56,405 nucleotides of DNA from the IMG/VR virus record IMGVR_UViG_3300017751_000019, positions 1 through 56,405 of that record; one strand, written 5' to 3'. Positions 12,244 to 21,868 of the stretch are shown in pieces. Under the pieces are notes generated by a model that was given only the letters and a program-made list of their open reading frames with translations, was not told where the DNA came from and did no database searches. The number at the start of each line of letters is the position of its first letter. Within the stretch, counting starts at the first letter, position 1. This stretch comes from a virus (lineage: Duplodnaviria > Caudoviricetes). The position numbers and the translations under genes are program-made.

Positions 12244-12627
12244 ATGTTCAAGATATTACGCAACATTTTTAGCCAGTTTGAAGCAGTGAATGACCCAAGT
12301 ATTTTGCAGACCACACCAGAGATGAACAAGATTAATCACCGTGAGCGTGCGTCCACGCCATCTCGAATCATCTCGGTACGGGGCAAGACGTTTGGTGTCG
12401 GTTTGGTACGCAATGCCAATGCGCGCAACCGATGGAAGAGGTTGTCCACGCTGCAAGTGGGCGAAGAGATGTGCTTCATGGAGAAGCAAGTCACGATGCA
12501 CAAAGCAGTAAAGTCATACCGCAACAGTTGGGAAGGCCAGAGTCGTGAGTACGTAATCAATCCTGCAACACTCGAGGGTGCTCGAATCCCAAGCCAAGAG
12601 GTGTCAGTAGTTACTCGCACCGCCTGA
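12244..12627 (+). CDS. Hypothetical protein
   Basis: 127 aa, AGGAG SD. Confidence 0.7.
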   Translation: MFKILRNIFSQFEAVNDPSILQTTPEMNKINHRERASTPSRIISVRGKTFGVGLVRNANARNRWKRLSTLQVGEEMCFMEKQVTMHKAVKSYRNSWEGQSREYVINPATLEGARIPSQEVSVVTRTA

Positions 12628-12740
12628 AAATCCTGGGGCTACAGCCCCTGTCAAATGCAACGGCTCGGCATCGAAAGGTGTCGGGTCGTTGTCGTTATGG
12701 TGTCACGTTATGTTGACACACGCACGCTTCAGTGTTCTCA

Positions 12741-12758
12741 TGACACCTTTAGGTGTCA
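12741..12758. promoter_or_regulatory. Palindromic operator, copy 1
   Basis: TGACACCT-TT-AGGTGTCA, downstream of TTGACA (12713-12718) and ahead of the AAA+ gene. Confidence 0.75.
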
Positions 12759-12786
12759 CTCACATTTACTTTAAAGGTTACTTATT

Positions 12787-14469
12787 ATGGTTAAAAAATC
12801 TATCGATTTATTCATAGAGGCATTTCAGCCCGAACTCACGCCAGAGCAACGCCGCAACACTTGTCGCAAGGCATTGGCTGAGGCTATTGGTGATACACGT
12901 ATGGACATTCAACTGTTATGGAATGAGGGAGAGTGGAAGCATCAGTTATCCGAACCCCGACTTACACCACGAGGTATCGCCAGTTTGTTTGGTAAGCCTC
13001 ACAGTATGTTGGTGTCAGCATTGAGCATCATGCTTGACGGCGACGAAACCAGCCGTCGCGTTGGTGAAGAGTCAAGGGGCAAGCTCGAGCTTTGGCATAC
13101 GGCAATGAAGTACCCACACAAGTGTGCAGAAGGATCACGGGGCAAGGTGTTTGGTATGCACAGGGATTGGGATGAAGCCTACTTCATGGACATCATATCG
13201 TATGCGGAGACGTTAGGTATTGACTGTGCCGCCAGCGCAAACATGAAACCGACTAAGACTGCTAGTAAGTCCAAGGCATCAGCGCCTGCCGCAGGTATTG
13301 AGACTGCGCTTAACGGACTGCTCGACACAGTGGGACTGCCTGACTACAGCGATCTCAGAGAGACTCTGGATAACCTAGTTGTATTGAAAGGCGACCTGAG
13401 AGACAAGGACGCAACCATCGAATCAATGAAGCGCCAGATAGACATGGCATCCAAGGCTACGTTGGCTCCCGTCAGCGTGAAGGGTAGCGGTGATGTGCCT
13501 GATGGCAAGGTCGAGATTGCCAAGGCGTATGACCTGTTCGATGTGGGTGCTAGTGACCGCTCGATGTTCGACTTCGATCTGCCTCATGGGGTGTGGGATC
13601 ACGATCACCCTTATGTTCCTGATGTGGACACAGCTTATGTGTTTGACCCCGAGACACTGATCCCAGTGTTGCTTGCTGTTGTGAACAATCGTATCCCGTG
13701 GTTGCGTGGACATACTGGTACTGGCAAGACAACGCTTGCCGAGCAAGTGTATGCACGCCTCAAGTTGCCAGTGTTCAGGCTCAATCTGGACAGTGACATT
13801 ACTCGTGGTGAACTGGTTGGTCGAGAAGTTATTCGCACTGACAGCGATGGCAAGACAGTGACTGAGTTTGTGGACGGGATTATCCCGATGGCAATGCAAC
13901 AGCCCTGTCTGCTACTGCTCGATGAGGTCGATGCGGCGAGGCCAGACATGGGCTTTGTCCTACAGCGATTGCTTGAGGGCAAGGGGTTCATGTTACTCGA
14001 GGATGGTGGACGCACAGTCGTACCGCATCAGCACTTCCGCATGATCGCAACAGCGAATACCAATGGGCGTGGTGACGAGACAGGATTGTACTCGGGGACA
14101 CGGGCTTTGGGTACAGCATTCGTGAACAGGTTCAAGCCTTACATCGAGGTTGATTACATGACCGAGGATGAAGAGGCTGAGTTGTTGCATGACAAGAATC
14201 CTGCTCTGGACAAGGATGACTGCAAGACTATTGCGAGGTATGCAACCGAGCACAGGACAGCGTTCAAGCAGAGTGATGTCACGTTGGCGTGTTCGCCCAG
14301 AGATACCTTGGCATTTGCGGCCAGTGCGGTGGACTACAAGAGGTGCTTCGGGTCAGGCAGTGGATGGATGATGCTTGCCTTGAAGCATTCGATATTGAAT
14401 GCGGCAGACAGTGACGACAAGCAGGCGCTTGAGGGACTGGCGAGCCGAGTGATTGGAGGAACTGTATGA
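12787..14469 (+). CDS. MoxR/CbbQ/CobS-like AAA+ ATPase
   Basis: GHTGTGKTT Walker A, LLLDEVDA Walker B, FRMIATANTNG, AFVNRF, SPR sensor 2; long N-terminal extension. Confidence 0.9.
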   Translation: MVKKSIDLFIEAFQPELTPEQRRNTCRKALAEAIGDTRMDIQLLWNEGEWKHQLSEPRLTPRGIASLFGKPHSMLVSALSIMLDGDETSRRVGEESRGKLELWHTAMKYPHKCAEGSRGKVFGMHRDWDEAYFMDIISYAETLGIDCAASANMKPTKTASKSKASAPAAGIETALNGLLDTVGLPDYSDLRETLDNLVVLKGDLRDKDATIESMKRQIDMASKATLAPVSVKGSGDVPDGKVEIAKAYDLFDVGASDRSMFDFDLPHGVWDHDHPYVPDVDTAYVFDPETLIPVLLAVVNNRIPWLRGHTGTGKTTLAEQVYARLKLPVFRLNLDSDITRGELVGREVIRTDSDGKTVTEFVDGIIPMAMQQPCLLLLDEVDAARPDMGFVLQRLLEGKGFMLLEDGGRTVVPHQHFRMIATANTNGRGDETGLYSGTRALGTAFVNRFKPYIEVDYMTEDEEAELLHDKNPALDKDDCKTIARYATEHRTAFKQSDVTLACSPRDTLAFAASAVDYKRCFGSGSGWMMLALKHSILNAADSDDKQALEGLASRVIGGTV

Positions 14470-17947: not shown

Positions 17948-18057
17948 GACAAATACCCTGTTGACACCTGTGTGTGGACGAGATGCGCCAAGCTGGTAGG
18001 CGTAAATTACGCATAAGGTGTTGAATACAGACACCTTAATTATTCTTATTAACGCTC

Positions 18058-18086
18058 TTGACATCCAATGCACTCCCCTTTATATT
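18058..18086 (+). promoter_or_regulatory. Sigma70-type promoter for the luxR-like/integrase operon
   Basis: TTGACA-N17-TATATT; half-sites TAAGGTGT and GACACCTTA lie just upstream (18014-18038). Confidence 0.75.
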
Positions 18087-18146
18087 CCCTTTGCTGTCAT
18101 GATTTCATTACAGTTATGTGCAAACGTATAATACAGGAGGAGCCAC

Positions 18147-18575
18147 ATGAAACTTGAAGACAAAGTGAATAGGCTCGAAGGGAGAATCGAGAGCCTAGAG
18201 AGAATGGTAGACAGGCTAGTACTTGGGCAAGGTCATCAAGTACAGCACGAGGATATGGTCAAGGCCATTCTCCCGAGATTAACTGCCAAACAACATGTTG
18301 CATTACAGATGATCATGCTTGGTTGCAGTAATGCACAGATAGCAAAGAGGTTTAACGTTACGGAGAATACCGCAAAGGTACACGTCAGAGGGATCGCCAG
18401 AAAGTATCGCGTGAGCACCCGCTCGCAGATCGTTATGGCGGCAGTGTCTGAGTGGGAATCTGTTACATCAAATCAATACTTGCTTATGAGCGGAGGCATA
18501 CCGAAGGATTGGGGTGAGACATATGGACGTGGGCCTATAACAAAAGACCCTCACTCTAAAATATACAGGAGTTAA
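18147..18575 (+). CDS. LuxR/GerE-type HTH transcriptional regulator
   Basis: LTAKQHVALQMIMLGCSNAQIAKRFNVTENTAKVHVRGIARKYRVSTRSQ; N-terminal coiled coil. Confidence 0.9.
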   Translation: MKLEDKVNRLEGRIESLERMVDRLVLGQGHQVQHEDMVKAILPRLTAKQHVALQMIMLGCSNAQIAKRFNVTENTAKVHVRGIARKYRVSTRSQIVMAAVSEWESVTSNQYLLMSGGIPKDWGETYGRGPITKDPHSKIYRS

Positions 18576-18578
18576 TTT

Positions 18579-19598
18579 ATGTTGCAGTTGAAGAGACGTG
18601 GAAAGACGTGGTACGTCACTGGTTTTTACGAGGGCAAGCGCATCAGGGTTAGTGCGAAAACTGATGATCAGATGGAAGCCCAGAGAGTGAGACTGCGCAT
18701 AGAGAATGAGTTGATCAATGGCAATTCTGCTGATGCCTCAACGAAGGAGGGAGAGGTATTTAGTTTTGCGATGGCAAGCTACCTAAAGAGGAGAGAGTTT
18801 ACCAGCGAGAGCACCTTGCGTTATCTGAATATGTTTAATGAGATGTGGGGTGAAGTGCCACTGCTTAAAATGGATCAGCATTTTATTGCTGAGTATATCG
18901 ATGTCCGATATACGGAGGTTCAAAGCGCAACGATACGGCGAGAGGTTAATGCGCTGATGCCAGTGTTGCGTCATGCTAAAAAGCGTGGGTTGATAACGAT
19001 GGTGCCAGATGTTGATCGACCTGCTGATGGAGAGCCAAGGACGAGGTGTCTTGACCAAGAAGAGTTGGCGGCATTCAATGGACAATGTGGTGACCCTAAT
19101 GGCAGTGGAATTACAGCAAGATATTGCATGACGTGCTTCTTGTTAGCGACTGGTGCTCGGATAGGTGAGGCTGTTGCGTTGAGTTGGGATGATGTGGAGT
19201 TGGATGTTGATCAGCCTTTTGTCACCCTTCATACCCGCAAAACCAAAGGCCAGAAGAAGGTGGCCAGACGTGTGCCTTTGCACGAAAATATGCAAGACCT
19301 GATGATCCAATGGCGATCAACTCAAGCCAGAAGTAAAAAGGTGTGGAGTGCTTGGCAGGATAGCCGAGGTGCAGGCAAGGCAGTCAAAAGCCTAATGAGT
19401 TTGGTTGGGATAAAAGATTTCCAGCCCCATGATTTGAGGCGCACCTTTGCCACTGAGTTACTCAAGAATGGTGTGAGAGAAAGAGTGGTCGCTGACCTGT
19501 TGGGTCACAGTAGTTTGGCTATGGTCATGCGCTACATGATCCCGCCTGACTCCACCAAGGTGGACGCGATAGCTAGTTTGTATCAACGTAGTGCGTGA
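18579..19598 (+). CDS. int: Tyrosine integrase
   Basis: TGARIGE (R), TRKTK (K), HDLRRT (HxxR), LLGHS (H), MRY (Y); N-terminal arm-binding-like domain. Confidence 0.95.
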   Translation: MLQLKRRGKTWYVTGFYEGKRIRVSAKTDDQMEAQRVRLRIENELINGNSADASTKEGEVFSFAMASYLKRREFTSESTLRYLNMFNEMWGEVPLLKMDQHFIAEYIDVRYTEVQSATIRREVNALMPVLRHAKKRGLITMVPDVDRPADGEPRTRCLDQEELAAFNGQCGDPNGSGITARYCMTCFLLATGARIGEAVALSWDDVELDVDQPFVTLHTRKTKGQKKVARRVPLHENMQDLMIQWRSTQARSKKVWSAWQDSRGAGKAVKSLMSLVGIKDFQPHDLRRTFATELLKNGVRERVVADLLGHSSLAMVMRYMIPPDSTKVDAIASLYQRSA

Positions 19599-19666
19599 CA
19601 CACACGCTATTAGGTGTCGAAAGCGTGGTCACACACAACGAATGAAGAAGTAAACTGAATTACAAA

Positions 19667-19695
19667 TTGAAAACCAATAAGAGAGGCAATACAAT
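19667..19695 (+). promoter_or_regulatory. Sigma70 promoter with GC-rich discriminator in front of the tRNA fragment
   Basis: TTGAAA-N17-TACAAT followed by GCACGCG; ends 14 nt before the tRNA 5' end. Confidence 0.8.
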
Positions 19696-19709
19696 GCACG
19701 CGAATCAAA

Positions 19710-19750
19710 GGAGAAGTGGCCGAGTGGCTGAAGGCGCGCCCCTGCTAAGG
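19710..19750 (+). mobile_element. Putative attP core: 5' half of tRNA-Ser(GCT)
   Basis: GGAGAAGTGGCCGAGTGGCTGAAGGCGCGCCCCTGCTAAGG = acceptor 5' strand, D arm and anticodon loop CTGCTAA; no T arm or 3' strand follows; about 110 bp after int. Confidence 0.85.
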
Positions 19751-20004
19751 ATTGAGAAGGCACGGGGAACGCTATTTGAGAGACTTCTGACACCTTTTAG
19801 ACGTATCAGGGTGGCACTGGTTGACTGGAATAACCCCGTAATAGTTATCGCAAGTCCCAATATGTCACTTATGACACACACATATGACACCTTAATCTGC
19901 ACTTTAACGACCAACATTAAGGCCATGCCTCAAGGTCGTGAACATGATGAACTCGAAGAGGTGCGGGATTTAATTGAAGGGTTTAAAGAGGCTTACATTG
20001 CGTC

Positions 20005-20763
20005 TCAAAAATAGACACCGATAGTATTTGTGTCCAACAAAAGAGCCCCGTGTCCCTGTAAAGTGATGCGGGGTTTTTCTTTGGAGGGCATGTGATCCGA
20101 TGCGATCCGGTGGGGAAACCTGCCGTCATGTATATAGAGATGTCCTATCTCGTAGGGTAAGTATGTTCTTTGCGTTGCCCCGTTTTCCCAATAATCAAGT
20201 CCGCCCTTTCCGTCAGGTAATTCTAGTGCCAGTGTGTAGCTGAATGGGTTCGCGAATGGCTCCGGCCAGAGTATGCGTTGGAAGGGTTCGTCCGTGTGTA
20301 TGTGGCCTCCATCTGGATGCTTGCCTGCATTCTCTCCGAAGATGTGGAAGCCTGTTAGTCCAGCCATAGGCAACTCGACAACTTTGTGGTTGAAGCATTT
20401 CTCTATGGCTTTGTAGACGAGATCGAGCAGGGGAGTGAAGTGCTTTGCGATGATAATGTTGTTCTCTTCTGCGACCTGATAGTAACTTGCGTGGCCATCA
20501 GATATGACGAGGTCGTTGTACGTGGACGCACCTATTGTATAGAAGGTTCCATCCCCCCTGCTGATCCAATGGGGACGTAAACGCTTCACGACTTCGGCGT
20601 AATGTTCGGATACTTTTTCGTTGAGGAGGGGGACGTCGATGATGTCGATGGAGTTTTTTGGGGACGCAGCGTGGCGAATGTTCTCTGCGATGTTTGCCCA
20701 TCTTGCTTCGTCCTCCGCCTCACTTTCTTTCGGGGGATGAAGGTACGTCACAGTTGCGGTCAT
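20005..20763 (-). CDS. 2OG-Fe(II) oxygenase-like protein
   Basis: HIHTD (HxD), SYTLALELP..KGGL, HDGRFPHRI...RITLQGH. Confidence 0.7.
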   Translation of the reverse strand: MTATVTYLHPPKESEAEDEARWANIAENIRHAASPKNSIDIIDVPLLNEKVSEHYAEVVKRLRPHWISRGDGTFYTIGASTYNDLVISDGHASYYQVAEENNIIIAKHFTPLLDLVYKAIEKCFNHKVVELPMAGLTGFHIFGENAGKHPDGGHIHTDEPFQRILWPEPFANPFSYTLALELPDGKGGLDYWENGATQRTYLPYEIGHLYIHDGRFPHRIASDHMPSKEKPRITLQGHGALLLDTNTIGVYF

Positions 20764-20764
20764 G

Positions 20765-21127
20765 TCAGTATGACCATAGAGCAGGTGATGCTTTACCCGC
20801 GCAATCGTCTAGGTGGATGAAGCGCGAGGACAAGCTACCCTTTTGGGCGACGCCGATTCGTTTGAAACCTTTTGCTCTCGCAGCGTCGATTAATTTCATA
20901 GCTCGTTCACCGTGGACAGCGATGTCTATGGCCCGCCCGGATTGGTGCGCCCCGGGGGAATTTTTTCGTTTTTCTATTGGGTGCTCGGCGCACCTGTAGC
21001 CAGAGGTGACGACGAATGGGAAGCCGAGTTCTTCTCTGAGTTCCTCGATGACGCCCATGAAGCTGTGGTCAATACCTTCTTCGCCACAGTGTTGGCAGGC
21101 TAATTCTTTTTCGGTGAAATACTTCAT
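20765..21127 (-). CDS. Endolysin, peptidase M15 family
   Basis: YFTEKELACQHCG, VTSGYRC..H, GAHQSGRAIDI, FIHLD. Confidence 0.9.
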   Translation of the reverse strand: MKYFTEKELACQHCGEEGIDHSFMGVIEELREELGFPFVVTSGYRCAEHPIEKRKNSPGAHQSGRAIDIAVHGERAMKLIDAARAKGFKRIGVAQKGSLSSRFIHLDDCAGKASPALWSY

Positions 21128-21128
21128 G

Positions 21129-21449
21129 TTATTTCCTTGTCATGTAGGCAGTCGCGCCAAAGAACATACCGATCACGGATGCCTGACTCAGGAATAGCAT
21201 GTCGGATAGGGCTGCTAGGGTTTCGAGGCGTGACTCGGGGACGAATGGCATGAGTGGGAGGAGGGCAAAGGTACACATAGATACCATTGCCACCCATGCC
21301 ATTCGTCTTTGACTGTCAGCTTTCTCTTCTTGCAGTTCTAGCTTGAGCATCTCTTGGTTACGCGCAATCTCTTGGTCGGTGACCGTGCCGTCCCCGTCGA
21401 GATCGTATTGAGCGAACCTGCTGTTGGGTTCAAGTTTCTTTGGGCTCAC
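21129..21449 (-). CDS. Membrane protein with EF-hand-like loop (lysis cassette)
   Basis: DLDGDGTVTDQE plus two hydrophobic helices; lies between holin and endolysin. Confidence 0.7.
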   Translation of the reverse strand: MSPKKLEPNSRFAQYDLDGDGTVTDQEIARNQEMLKLELQEEKADSQRRMAWVAMVSMCTFALLPLMPFVPESRLETLAALSDMLFLSQASVIGMFFGATAYMTRK

Positions 21450-21817
21450 TTGCCTACACCTTTCACGCGCTCGTAACTACGTCCACCAGAGAGGCCGAGC
21501 ATACCGAGGAGGATGGGCATCATGACCGAGGCATCTGCTTGTGGGATTGTGACGCCGAAGCCAGCGGCGAGAGGCGACACGAGGAAGTTTACGAATAGGG
21601 ATATGACACAAACATAACCGCATAAGGGTCGCCAAGATGATTGGAACCATCCGCCTTTAGCATCTTCCTTTAGGATTTCTATTTGCCCAAGCATGATTTC
21701 TTGATGATGTCGTTCTGACATCGTAGCTATCTGGTGGGCGAGTGCGGCCTTCTGATCTTTGTCCTCGATGAATTTATCGAGCAGCCCGGTGACCGGGCCA
21801 ATGAGTTGTGCGAGCAT
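21446..21817 (-). CDS. Holin, 3TM (GTA-type) family
   Basis: LIGPVTGLLDKFIEDKD, WFQSSWRPLCGY, LGMLGLSGGRSYE.VKGV; AGGAGG SD before ATG 21817. Confidence 0.8.
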   Translation of the reverse strand: MLAQLIGPVTGLLDKFIEDKDQKAALAHQIATMSERHHQEIMLGQIEILKEDAKGGWFQSSWRPLCGYVCVISLFVNFLVSPLAAGFGVTIPQADASVMMPILLGMLGLSGGRSYERVKGVGK

Positions 21818-21836
21818 AATGTTACCTCCTGATACC

Positions 21837-21868
21837 ATTATTCATGGGGAGGACAAGCACTGTCGTCC
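21837..21868 (-). promoter_or_regulatory. Late promoter motif upstream of holin
   Basis: GGACGAC-N19-AATAAT. Confidence 0.7.

What the first reader, a model, noticed from the sequence alone, without database searches (positions are those of the whole stretch)
19667..19750. attP supplies the 5' half of tRNA-Ser(GCT) together with its own stable-RNA-type promoter
Seen: 41 nt matching a tRNA-Ser(GCT) from position 1 to just past the anticodon loop, after which similarity stops. Directly upstream is TTGAAA-N17-TACAAT with a GC-rich discriminator (GCACGCG) and an A-rich upstream tract. Known: most tRNA-targeting elements carry the 3' part and leave the host promoter in place; GC-rich discriminators mark stringently controlled tRNA/rRNA promoters. 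Inference: crossover in the anticodon loop rebuilds the host tRNA under a phage promoter, giving the prophage control of the tRNA that reads AGC/AGU codons and of any downstream tRNA operon, while the host tRNA promoter would point into the prophage against the lysis genes. The free phage may also make a tRNA-half RNA. The fragment is also a host-prediction handle.
Basis: partly seen in the sequence, partly recalled or inferred. Interest (0 to 1): 0.85.

Follow-up and report, generated by a model that had tools for sequence, protein, structure and literature searches.

The report
Phage attP carrying tRNA-Ser front half
This marine phage's attachment site holds the first 41 bases of a host serine-tRNA gene behind a promoter-like sequence, so insertion would rebuild the tRNA from the phage side; this mirror-image layout is uncommon but already documented in other marine phages.

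Summary
Window 19710-19750 is identical to bases 1-41 of tRNA-Ser(GCT) genes in 62 marine bacterial genome loci. It ends two bases past the anticodon loop. TTGAAA-N17-TACAAT lies upstream, with the -10 hexamer ending 14 nt before tRNA +1 (chance about 0.0006).

The window is a free CRP-810-type phage genome. The fragment lies 112 nt downstream of a tyrosine integrase gene.

Five diverged relatives carry the same 5' half, each in a variant of its own. Three of the four variants were found exactly in real bacterial tRNAs. Other members of the same integrase family carry the conventional 3' part of tRNA-Ser or tRNA-Thr, or a full tRNA-Thr. So this is very probably attP, and integration would rebuild the tRNA beside int from a phage 5' half and promoter.

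No lysogen or junction of this phage was found. Promoter activity is untested.

An unrelated 56-kb prophage in an alphaproteobacterial chromosome shows the same mechanism at the same tRNA.

The layout is published for pelagiphages and for archaeal pTN3. Earlier notes of this scan report it on other DNA. It is a new member of a known, infrequent kind. The likely host is Porticoccaceae (SAR92).

The parts
18147..18575 (+). LuxR/GerE-type helix-turn-helix protein directly upstream of int
   Evidence: Pfam GerE 4.8e-10. CRP-810 has the same luxR-int order.
18579..19598 (+). Tyrosine integrase, 339 aa
   Evidence: Pfam Phage_integrase 6.8e-27. PHROG 1 integrase 1.6e-50. R194, K221, H284, R287, H310 and Y319 are invariant in a 20-sequence family alignment.
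19596..19639 (+). Left-arm repeats: TGACACA (19596-19602, overlapping the int stop codon), inverted TAGGTGTC (19611-19618), GGTCACACACAAC (19627-19639). These are candidate arm-type Int sites or regulator sites.
   Evidence: Sequence; motif statistics; like motifs flank the core in relatives. Who binds them is inferred.
19667..19695 (+). Promoter-like site TTGAAA-N17-TACAAT
   Evidence: 10 of 12 consensus matches. Background fraction 0.00055 for an equal score at this distance. Both hexamers are unchanged in sister phages while nearby bases vary.
19696..19709 (+). GC-rich discriminator GCACGCG plus the 7-nt stretch AATCAAA before tRNA +1
   Evidence: Sequence. Halieaceae tRNA-Ser genes have TATCAT-CCCGCGCC-TTAC before +1, a like layout.
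19710..19750 (+). 5' half of tRNA-Ser(GCT), bases 1-41: the attP segment identical to attB. The anticodon loop is at 19742-19748.
   Evidence: Exact in 62 host loci, all full tRNA genes. 0 tRNA genes in the window.
19739..19750 (+). CCCCTGCTAAGG: the only tRNA stretch shared by the 5'-half type and the 3'-part type of attP in this integrase family. This is the likeliest crossover region.
   Evidence: Comparison of class A and class B loci. The position of strand exchange is inferred.
19788..19891 (+). Right-arm repeats TGACACC (19788), TGACACA (19872), TGACACC (19885)
   Evidence: Four TGACACM sites lie on one strand within 19596-19891. The window holds 30 in all against 18.7 expected, and 0 of 100 shuffles reached 30.
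19862..20014 (+). Small conserved ORF (about 50 aa) between attP and the convergent - strand genes; function unknown
   Evidence: Open in the window. The related reading frame (YDTLI..., ELxELRxTLV...QK*) is present in 7 of 8 class A loci. No PHROG match.
20054..20083 (+). Terminator-like hairpin plus T run
   Evidence: A like sequence directly follows int in L069 and L072, which lack the attP region.
20005..21838 (-). Convergent block: 252-aa protein (20005-20763), M15 peptidase (20765-21127), three-TM holin (21446-21838)
   Evidence: Pfam Peptidase_M15_3 3.6e-15 and GTA_holin_3TM 1.8e-16; no Pfam hit for the 252-aa protein.

Best explanation
The window is the free (non-integrated) genome of a temperate CRP-810-type marine phage. 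The stretch from about 19596 to 19891 is its attP. It has repeat-bearing arms on both sides of a core made of the first 41 bases of the host tRNA-Ser(GCT) gene.

The integrase encoded just upstream would recombine this core with the identical stretch of the host gene, most probably in or beside the anticodon loop. Any crossover within the 41 bp gives two junctions. The junction far from int would hold the host promoter, the host 5' half, and then phage DNA from 19751 onward. The int-proximal junction would hold int, the phage promoter-like site, the phage 5' half, the host 3' half and the host terminator, which together form an intact tRNA-Ser(GCT) gene.

Because the host promoter is cut off, the rebuilt tRNA, which reads AGC and AGU, must be transcribed from the phage side. 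The near-consensus promoter ending 14 nt before tRNA +1 is the obvious candidate. The likely host is a member of Porticoccaceae (SAR92 group); Halieaceae is less likely.

Shown here: the sequence identity, its sharp boundaries, the position next to int, the layout in relatives, and an integrated analogue in another phage family. Inferred: integration by this phage, the crossover position, promoter activity, and who binds the arm repeats.
For: 1. The record is a virus genome estimated 97% complete, with int in mid-genome.

2. The 41-mer is exact in 62 host loci. All 62 are full tRNA-Ser(GCT) genes, and identity stops at the same base. Neither flank resembles any of 70 host loci.

3. Three sister phages (int 93-95% identical) have the same site with one change, A at tRNA position 7. 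That variant is exact in 22 of 202 Porticoccaceae genomes and 0 of 306 Halieaceae genomes. All 8 full A7 tRNAs printed have T opposite it.

4. Diverged relatives L068, L070, L071, L073 and L074 (int 34-49% identical) carry a 5' half starting at +1 and ending at AAGG or AAGGG, on the int strand downstream of int. In a sample of 301 Alphaproteobacteria their variants are exact in 11, 8 and 2 genomes; the L068 variant is in 0.

5. Other family members carry the conventional 3' part of tRNA-Ser or tRNA-Thr from the anticodon stem onward, or a full tRNA-Thr plus a 13-bp anticodon-loop core as in CRP-810, whose integration was PCR-verified (PMC11288001 section 9).

6. 7 of the 8 5'-half rows fall in one clade of 9 rows with support 94/99.

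7. The promoter scores 10 of 12 at the distance seen in host tRNA promoters, with a chance fraction of 0.00055.

8. Genome G706 holds a 56,043-bp prophage of another family. It has a Tyr integrase (Pfam 4.2e-13) and a TerL-like frame. On one side are host flank, host promoter and a truncated 5' half. On the other is an intact tRNA-Ser(GCT) behind an element-borne promoter copy. Five relatives have the empty site.

9. Published precedents with attL and attR PCR exist (PMC8477408 section 21; bioRxiv 10.1101/410191, passages).
Against: No integrated copy or junction of this phage or its close kin was found. Its integrase gave 0 of 306 Halieaceae and 0 of 202 Porticoccaceae genomes at E <= 1e-25. 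The first genome-contig scan gave none. The two informative metagenome loci of three fetched are both attP forms.

Four of the five diverged class A phages lack a significant sigma-70-like site at the expected place: scores were 6 to 7.5, against 9.5 for L071. A dedicated promoter is therefore not shown to be general.

They need not be Int arm sites.

Two relatives inside the class A clade (L069, L072) have int but no attP region.

Promoter scoring used the E. coli consensus, which may not fit the host.
Confidence: 0.75

Rival explanations
1. The site is attP and rebuilds the tRNA, but the TTGAAA-N17-TACAAT promoter mainly serves the phage. In the free genome it would transcribe through the tRNA half into the conserved small ORF (19862-20014). 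In the lysogen the tRNA would be made by read-through from int or upstream genes, as proposed for archaeal pTN3.
For: A conserved small + strand ORF lies 112 nt after the core and is followed by a terminator-like hairpin. No terminator-like site was reported between int and the tRNA half. Four of five diverged class A relatives show no significant promoter at the tRNA-proximal place. [quoted passage not shown]
Against: The -10 hexamer ends 14 nt before tRNA +1. Host tRNA-Ser promoters sit at 10-19 nt, and the GC-rich discriminator resembles theirs. Integrase genes are usually kept quiet in lysogens (general knowledge), while this tRNA is needed constantly. The two roles do not exclude each other.
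Confidence: 0.13
2. The fragment is a functionless relic, for example host DNA picked up by faulty excision or a decayed phage tRNA gene, and the phage integrates elsewhere or not at all.
For: No lysogen was found. L069 and L072 keep int without this region. Faulty excision is a plausible origin for such a segment: the G706 element's promoter copy resembles the host's.
Against: The fragment begins exactly at +1. It ends within two bases of the same point in five diverged lineages. It is 41 of 41 identical to living host tRNAs, while both flanks are unrelated to the 70 host loci compared. Sister phages differ by one base that matches a real host variant. A decaying relic would not keep these boundaries or this identity.
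Confidence: 0.07
3. The promoter plus tRNA half is expressed during infection as a small RNA with a job of its own, such as a decoy for anticodon nucleases or a regulator. Integration would be secondary.
For: In the free genome a promoter-like site sits directly in front of the half.
Against: The predicted transcript 19702-19860 folds no better than shuffles: z 0.52, with 136 of 200 shuffles at least as good. No Rfam match in 19500-20000 reached its family's gathering score; there were three weak matches to unrelated families and none to tRNA. No RNA run holds the stretch (0 of 20 holders). The position beside int and the 3'-part relatives are explained by attP alone.
Confidence: 0.04

Closest known systems
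Pelagiphage HTVC028P attP (HTVC010P-type; Du et al. 2021, PMC8477408; section 21 read)
   Same: attP lies in the intergenic region downstream of int. A 40-bp core is identical to the 5' end of a host tRNA gene. The host tRNA is split and rebuilt with the phage part. It is a marine phage.
   Different: It targets tRNA-Asn in a SAR11 host and belongs to an unrelated phage group. Integration was PCR-verified there and not here. That paper does not use the word promoter (0 occurrences).
HTVC019P-type pelagiphages HTVC021P/022P, HTVC109P, HTVC120P (bioRxiv 10.1101/410191; passages read)
   Same: On integration the phage-borne partial 5' end of a tRNA gene complements the split host tRNA. The same phage group also holds members with a short core plus a full phage tRNA.
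   Different: The targets are tRNA-Cys, -Leu and -Arg. Some rebuilt tRNAs carry base changes. These are T7-like podoviruses. The paper does not discuss a promoter (0 occurrences).
Archaeal pTN3/TKV4-type integrases (PMC8371274 section 18; PMC5495485, supporting-information legends)
   Same: attB is the 5' half of a tRNA gene and 41 bp are shared. The tRNA is rebuilt but separated from its own promoter.
   Different: These are archaeal. attP lies inside the int gene, which is split on integration. Expression is said to come from the integrase promoter, not a separate one.
Roseobacter phage CRP-810 and the CRP-810-type family (PMC11288001; abstract, section 9 and passages read)
   Same: It is the nearest isolated phage: TerL 61.9% identical, the same cobT-denV-luxR-int order, and about 57 kb. 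attP lies just after int at a tRNA anticodon loop.
   Different: CRP-810 has a 13-bp core and a full tRNA-Thr gene, with int only 29.5% identical. The paper reports hosts among Alphaproteobacteria. In the passages I read it mentions no tRNA-Ser site and no 5' half.
tRNA-dependent lysogeny (Guerrero-Bustamante and Hatfull 2024, PMC10865867; abstract, introduction, discussion read)
   Same: It is an alternative answer to the same problem: keeping the tRNA function after integration into a tRNA gene.
   Different: There the tRNA is not rebuilt, and a full phage tRNA gene complements the loss. This window has no tRNA gene.
[quoted passage not shown]
   Same: [quoted passage not shown]
   Different: I could not read it, so details cannot be compared.

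Membership tests
Tyrosine (lambda-type) integrases | Catalytic domain of the phage integrase family | tested here: met
   Pfam PF00589 6.8e-27 over residues 158-320; PHROG 1 1.6e-50.
Tyrosine (lambda-type) integrases | Conserved catalytic residues Arg, Lys, His, Arg, His and the Tyr nucleophile | tested here: met
   R194, K221, H284, R287, H310 and Y319 are invariant in 20 family sequences. Assigning these residues to the catalytic roles rests on my own knowledge of the family.
tRNA-gene attachment sites, anticodon-loop sublocation (Williams 2002 scheme, as described in PMC8371274) | A block of identity with a host tRNA gene that has one border at the anticodon stem-loop and lies next to int | tested here: met
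   41 of 41 identity ending 2 nt after the loop, 112 nt after the int stop codon.
tRNA-gene attachment sites, anticodon-loop sublocation (Williams 2002 scheme, as described in PMC8371274) | Observed attL and attR junctions in a host | tested here: inconclusive
   None was found for this phage. The contig data cannot bridge the tRNA. Absence from these collections does not show that the phage cannot integrate.
tRNA-gene attachment sites, anticodon-loop sublocation (Williams 2002 scheme, as described in PMC8371274) | Arm-type repeats flanking the core | tested here: inconclusive
   TGACACM-type repeats flank the core on both sides here and in relatives. The motif also clusters at 12600-13017, so another protein may bind it.
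5'-side (reverse-polarity) tRNA-integrating elements | The element carries the 5' part of the tRNA gene starting at +1, not the 3' part | tested here: met
5'-side (reverse-polarity) tRNA-integrating elements | The element supplies transcription for the rebuilt tRNA | tested here: inconclusive
   There is a near-consensus promoter at the right distance. Its activity cannot be tested with these tools.
CRP-810-type phage family | Shared core genes and conserved gene order with CRP-810 | tested here: met
   TerL is 61.9% identical, against 34.5% for the next best phage. The cobS-like, cobT, denV-like, luxR and int genes are in the same order. Portal and primase-polymerase are present. The major capsid protein and the other core genes named in the paper were not compared.
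tRNA-dependent lysogeny | Short common core that does not rebuild the tRNA, plus a full cognate tRNA gene in the phage | tested here: not met
   0 tRNA genes in the window. The 41-bp block would rebuild the tRNA.

The most novel reading that the evidence does not exclude
Integration acts as a two-way promoter swap. The sole tRNA for AGC and AGU codons would become dependent on a prophage promoter. This would make loss of the prophage by anything other than precise excision costly, and would let the phage set the level of that tRNA. In the other direction, the host's growth-rate-controlled tRNA promoter would be redirected into the prophage. There it would drive the conserved small ORF at 19862-20014 and read against the lysis block, giving the prophage a direct read-out of host growth state. 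One integrase family holds four att layouts: 5' half, 3' part on either strand, and full tRNA plus short core. That would make it a natural series for seeing how such layouts interconvert.
Probability: 0.15. Interest if true: 0.65.

Novelty: new member of a known kind. Interest (0 to 1): 0.4.

Why it matters
[quoted passage not shown] The published family description names only alphaproteobacterial hosts in the passages I read.

Within one integrase family, the same tRNA anticodon-loop target is served by four different ways of keeping the tRNA alive. That is a useful comparative series for studying how attachment sites evolve.

It also raises a point that neither pelagiphage paper discusses (the word promoter occurs in neither). 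A 5'-side attP must bring its own transcription signal, and here a good candidate can be named and tested. Prophage finders that look only for 3' tRNA fragments would miss such sites.

Tried and rejected
Searches for an integrated form all failed.
- The integrase as protein query against genome contigs gave no relative.
- The genome search over 306 Halieaceae and 202 Porticoccaceae genomes gave 0 and 0 hits at E <= 1e-25.
- Metagenome contigs gave 3 loci. One is cut before the site and two are attP forms.
- The exact 41-mer in viral contigs gave 0 hits. The window's own record may be left out there.

Sequencing runs were uninformative. 20 DNA runs hold the stretch and none is RNA. I laid the contigs of four marine metagenome runs. 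They break inside 19710-19750, where depth is dominated by host tRNAs. The loose ends there are host tRNA flanks and other phages' flanks. No contig bridges the site, so this says nothing for or against integration.

Rfam at a permissive threshold on 19500-20000 gave three weak matches (best E 0.03), all below their gathering scores and none to tRNA, so it did not see the half tRNA. megablast of 18000-21000 against phage records found nothing. The fold of 19702-19860 was not better than shuffles. The small ORF had no PHROG match.

I considered that the 115-aa ORF 19667-20014 is a gene. I rejected its 5' part because it starts in the -35 hexamer and runs through the tRNA half. Only the last ~50 codons are conserved as protein.

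I considered that the two-copy genomes G398, G696 and G772 were lysogens. G398 is an overlap of two contig ends. G696 and G772 had no close family integrase, and I did not pursue them.

Literature. Williams 2002 (PMC100330) and Zhao and Williams 2002 (PMC139527) are not held, so what they report on bacterial 5'-side cases I know only through citing papers. Phrase searches containing 5' cannot be run. Searches with '5 half' and '5 end of the' found nothing, and 'portion of the tRNA' found nothing. Supplementary figures of the pelagiphage and CRP-810 papers, which show the att alignments, were not seen and may bear on the comparison.

Full report
What the window is. The genome search identifies the window as a whole virus record of 56,405 bases, linear, estimated 97% complete. 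It encodes the following:
- a large terminase, a portal protein, tail fibres, a primase-polymerase and a CobS-like ATPase;
- CobT, a DenV-like glycosylase (weak Pfam match), a 2OG-Fe(II) oxygenase, a LuxR/GerE-type protein and a tyrosine integrase at 18579-19598.

Its terminase is 61.9% identical to that of Roseobacter phage CRP-810, and the next best phage record reaches 34.5%. CRP-810 has the same cobT - denV - luxR - int order. I therefore place the window in the CRP-810-type family described in PMC11288001 (abstract and section 9 read). Because int sits in mid-genome, the record is in the free form and not the prophage form.

The observation. The bases at 19710-19750 are as described. ARAGORN finds no tRNA gene anywhere in the window. 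The exact 41-mer is present in 62 loci of the species-representative genome collection. In all 62 it is the start of a tRNA-Ser(GCT) gene that continues GCGTA or GTGTA, where the phage reads ATTGAG. By my tally of the record titles, about 19 loci bear Halieaceae-type names (Congregibacter, Luminiphilus, NOR5-3) and about 16 bear Porticoccaceae, SAR92 or HTCC2207 names. The rest are other, mostly marine, Gammaproteobacteria and a few Alphaproteobacteria. Neither flank of the 41-mer resembles any of 70 host loci, so the identity is confined to tRNA bases 1-41. Counting along the gene, the anticodon loop is bases 33-39, and the block ends two bases into the 3' arm of the anticodon stem.

The promoter-like site. 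TTGAAA-N17-TACAAT (19667-19695) is the best sigma-70-type match in 19000-20600. On its own that is not remarkable, since shuffles of the region give 1.8 sites on average. Its position is what matters. The -10 hexamer ends 14 nt before tRNA +1. Only a fraction of 0.00055 of 20,000 random positions in the window have an equal or better site ending 3-25 nt upstream. Halieaceae tRNA-Ser genes have TTGACC-N16-TATCAT ending 12 nt before +1, followed by CCCGCGCC. The phage layout, with discriminator GCACGCG, is of the same type. In the sister phages both hexamers, the discriminator and the short stretch before +1 are unchanged, while bases upstream and two spacer bases vary. All of this is sequence evidence only.

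Relatives. A search with the integrase found two near-identical phages in IMG/VR and two informative metagenome contigs. All have the same site in attP form. Three of them have A instead of G at tRNA position 7. That variant is exact in 22 of 202 Porticoccaceae genomes and in 0 of 306 Halieaceae genomes. In all 8 full A7 tRNA genes that I printed, the opposite acceptor base is T, so the pair is kept. The one-base difference between sister phages thus follows a difference that exists among Porticoccaceae. This is why I favour that family as host, although the window's own G7 form also fits Halieaceae. The window's G+C content is 50.1%.

A profile search with 20 family integrases brought 74 viral loci. 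Five of them (L068, L070, L071, L073, L074; int 34-49% identical) also carry a tRNA-Ser(GCT) 5' half downstream of int on the int strand. In each it starts at +1 and ends at AAGG or AAGGG, and each has its own sequence variant. In a sample of 301 Alphaproteobacteria, the L071 variant is exact in 11 genomes, the L070/L074 variant in 8, the L073 variant in 2, and the L068 variant in none.

Other loci of the same family show three other layouts:
- The conventional 3' part of tRNA-Ser, or of tRNA-Thr(GGT), running from the anticodon stem to CCA on the int strand.
- The 3' part of tRNA-Thr on the opposite strand, between int and the anticodon loop.
- A full tRNA-Thr gene plus a separate 13-bp anticodon stem-loop core. 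This is the CRP-810 layout, for which attL and attR were amplified (PMC11288001 section 9).

The 5'-half type and the 3'-part type of tRNA-Ser site share only CCCCTGCTAAGG, which contains the anticodon loop. That is the basis for placing the crossover there.

In a tree of 48 integrase rows, 7 of 8 5'-half rows lie in one clade of 9 (support 94/99), together with two loci that have lost the site. L073 lies apart. I left loci with partial integrases out of the tree: L074, L085, L109, L112-L124 and L127-L139.

An integrated example of the same mechanism. The alphaproteobacterial sample contained a genome, G706, with two exact copies of the L071-type 41-mer. They lie 56,043 bp apart on one strand.
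- The upstream copy follows host flank and a promoter-like stretch. It is followed by foreign DNA that begins with a convergent tyrosine integrase gene (Pfam 4.2e-13), and it is not a tRNA gene.
- The downstream copy is an intact tRNA-Ser(GCT). Its upstream region differs from the host flank but shares TGCGGCATACACGGCGGT and CTTGAAA with it.
- Five related genomes have the same left flank joined directly to an intact tRNA, which is the empty site.
- A TerL-like frame lies inside the interval.

So a 56-kb prophage there supplies both the 5' half and a promoter copy. Its integrase is not detectably related to the window's by BLASTP, and it sits on the other side of the core. This is an analogue, not a relative. 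A second genome, G707, has a truncated 5' half with a convergent integrase. That integrase matches the family profile at 4.9e-30 and is 25.8% identical to the window's. I did not map its other end.

Mechanism. Any crossover within the 41 bp gives the same products. One is host promoter + 5' half + phage DNA from 19751 onward. The other is int + phage promoter-like site + 5' half + host 3' half. The second is an intact gene whose 5' half is identical to the host's own. The first puts the host promoter in front of a conserved small + strand ORF (19862-20014) and a terminator-like hairpin (20054-20083). Beyond these lie the convergent 252-aa gene, an M15 peptidase and a holin.

In 21 of the 22 A7-variant Porticoccaceae genomes the 41-mer occurs once. 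The twenty-second is a contig overlap. A lysogen therefore very likely needs the rebuilt gene to be expressed.

Repeats of the type TGACAC(A/C) flank the core and recur around the cores of relatives. They may be Int arm sites. Which protein binds them is open.

What is known. Passages I read support the following:
[quoted passage not shown] - Pelagiphage HTVC028P has a 40-bp core identical to the 5' end of tRNA-Asn downstream of int, with attL and attR amplified (PMC8477408 section 21).
- Several HTVC019P-type pelagiphages complement the split tRNA with a phage-borne 5' end (bioRxiv 10.1101/410191, passages).
- Neither pelagiphage paper contains the word promoter.

Earlier notes of this scan report 5'-half attP sites with promoters on other DNA.

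The finding is therefore a new member of a known but infrequent kind. New here are the host link to marine Gammaproteobacteria, the named promoter candidate, and the range of att layouts within one integrase family.

Verdict. The core interpretation is probable (about 0.75) but has no junction evidence. The side claims are untested. Interest is moderate.

Noticed in passing
L147:950-1521; also L145, L150, L151: In Porticoccaceae genomes the tRNA-Ser(GCT) gene is preceded by tandem 147-nt units. L147 has 3.9 copies at 100% identity. Each unit starts with tRNA bases 1-21, followed by a hairpin with a T run and a promoter-like tail. The units match no Rfam family. They could be scars or duplications linked to 5'-side integration, but this is unexplained.
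   Followed up: partly
L153 and L154 (G706:C1:1841336-1897419): A 56-kb prophage of another family is flanked by a truncated 5' half of tRNA-Ser(GCT) and an intact gene behind an element-borne promoter copy. Five relatives have empty sites.
   Followed up: yes
L163 (G707:C8:125511-129428): A truncated tRNA-Ser 5' half with a promoter-like upstream region faces a convergent integrase of the window's family (profile E 4.9e-30). It looks like an attL-type junction. The other end was not mapped.
   Followed up: partly
L069 and L072, just after int: Two phages inside the 5'-half clade have int followed directly by the conserved terminator-like hairpin. The attP region and the small ORF are both absent.
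   Followed up: no
window 12600-13017: A second cluster of six TGACAC(A/C) motifs on both strands lies upstream of the cobS-like gene.
   Followed up: partly
L003, L013, L017, L022, L030, L033, L043, L053/L054, L063: In at least 8 of the 62 host loci the tRNA-Ser gene lies within about 100 nt of a contig end, or within about 400 nt in L003. This suggests that assemblies often break here, as expected at a site with variable inserted DNA.
   Followed up: no
window 19862-20014: A small conserved ORF (about 50 aa; related frames in 7 of 8 class A loci) lies between attP and the convergent lysis-side genes. It matches no PHROG family. It might be a directionality factor or a regulator.
   Followed up: partly
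L077-L081, L083, L084, L092-L094, L096-L098, L100, L106, L107, L109-L111, L140: The same integrase family uses tRNA-Thr(GGT) in three layouts: the 3' part on the int strand, the 3' part on the opposite strand, and a full tRNA plus a 13-bp core.
   Followed up: partly
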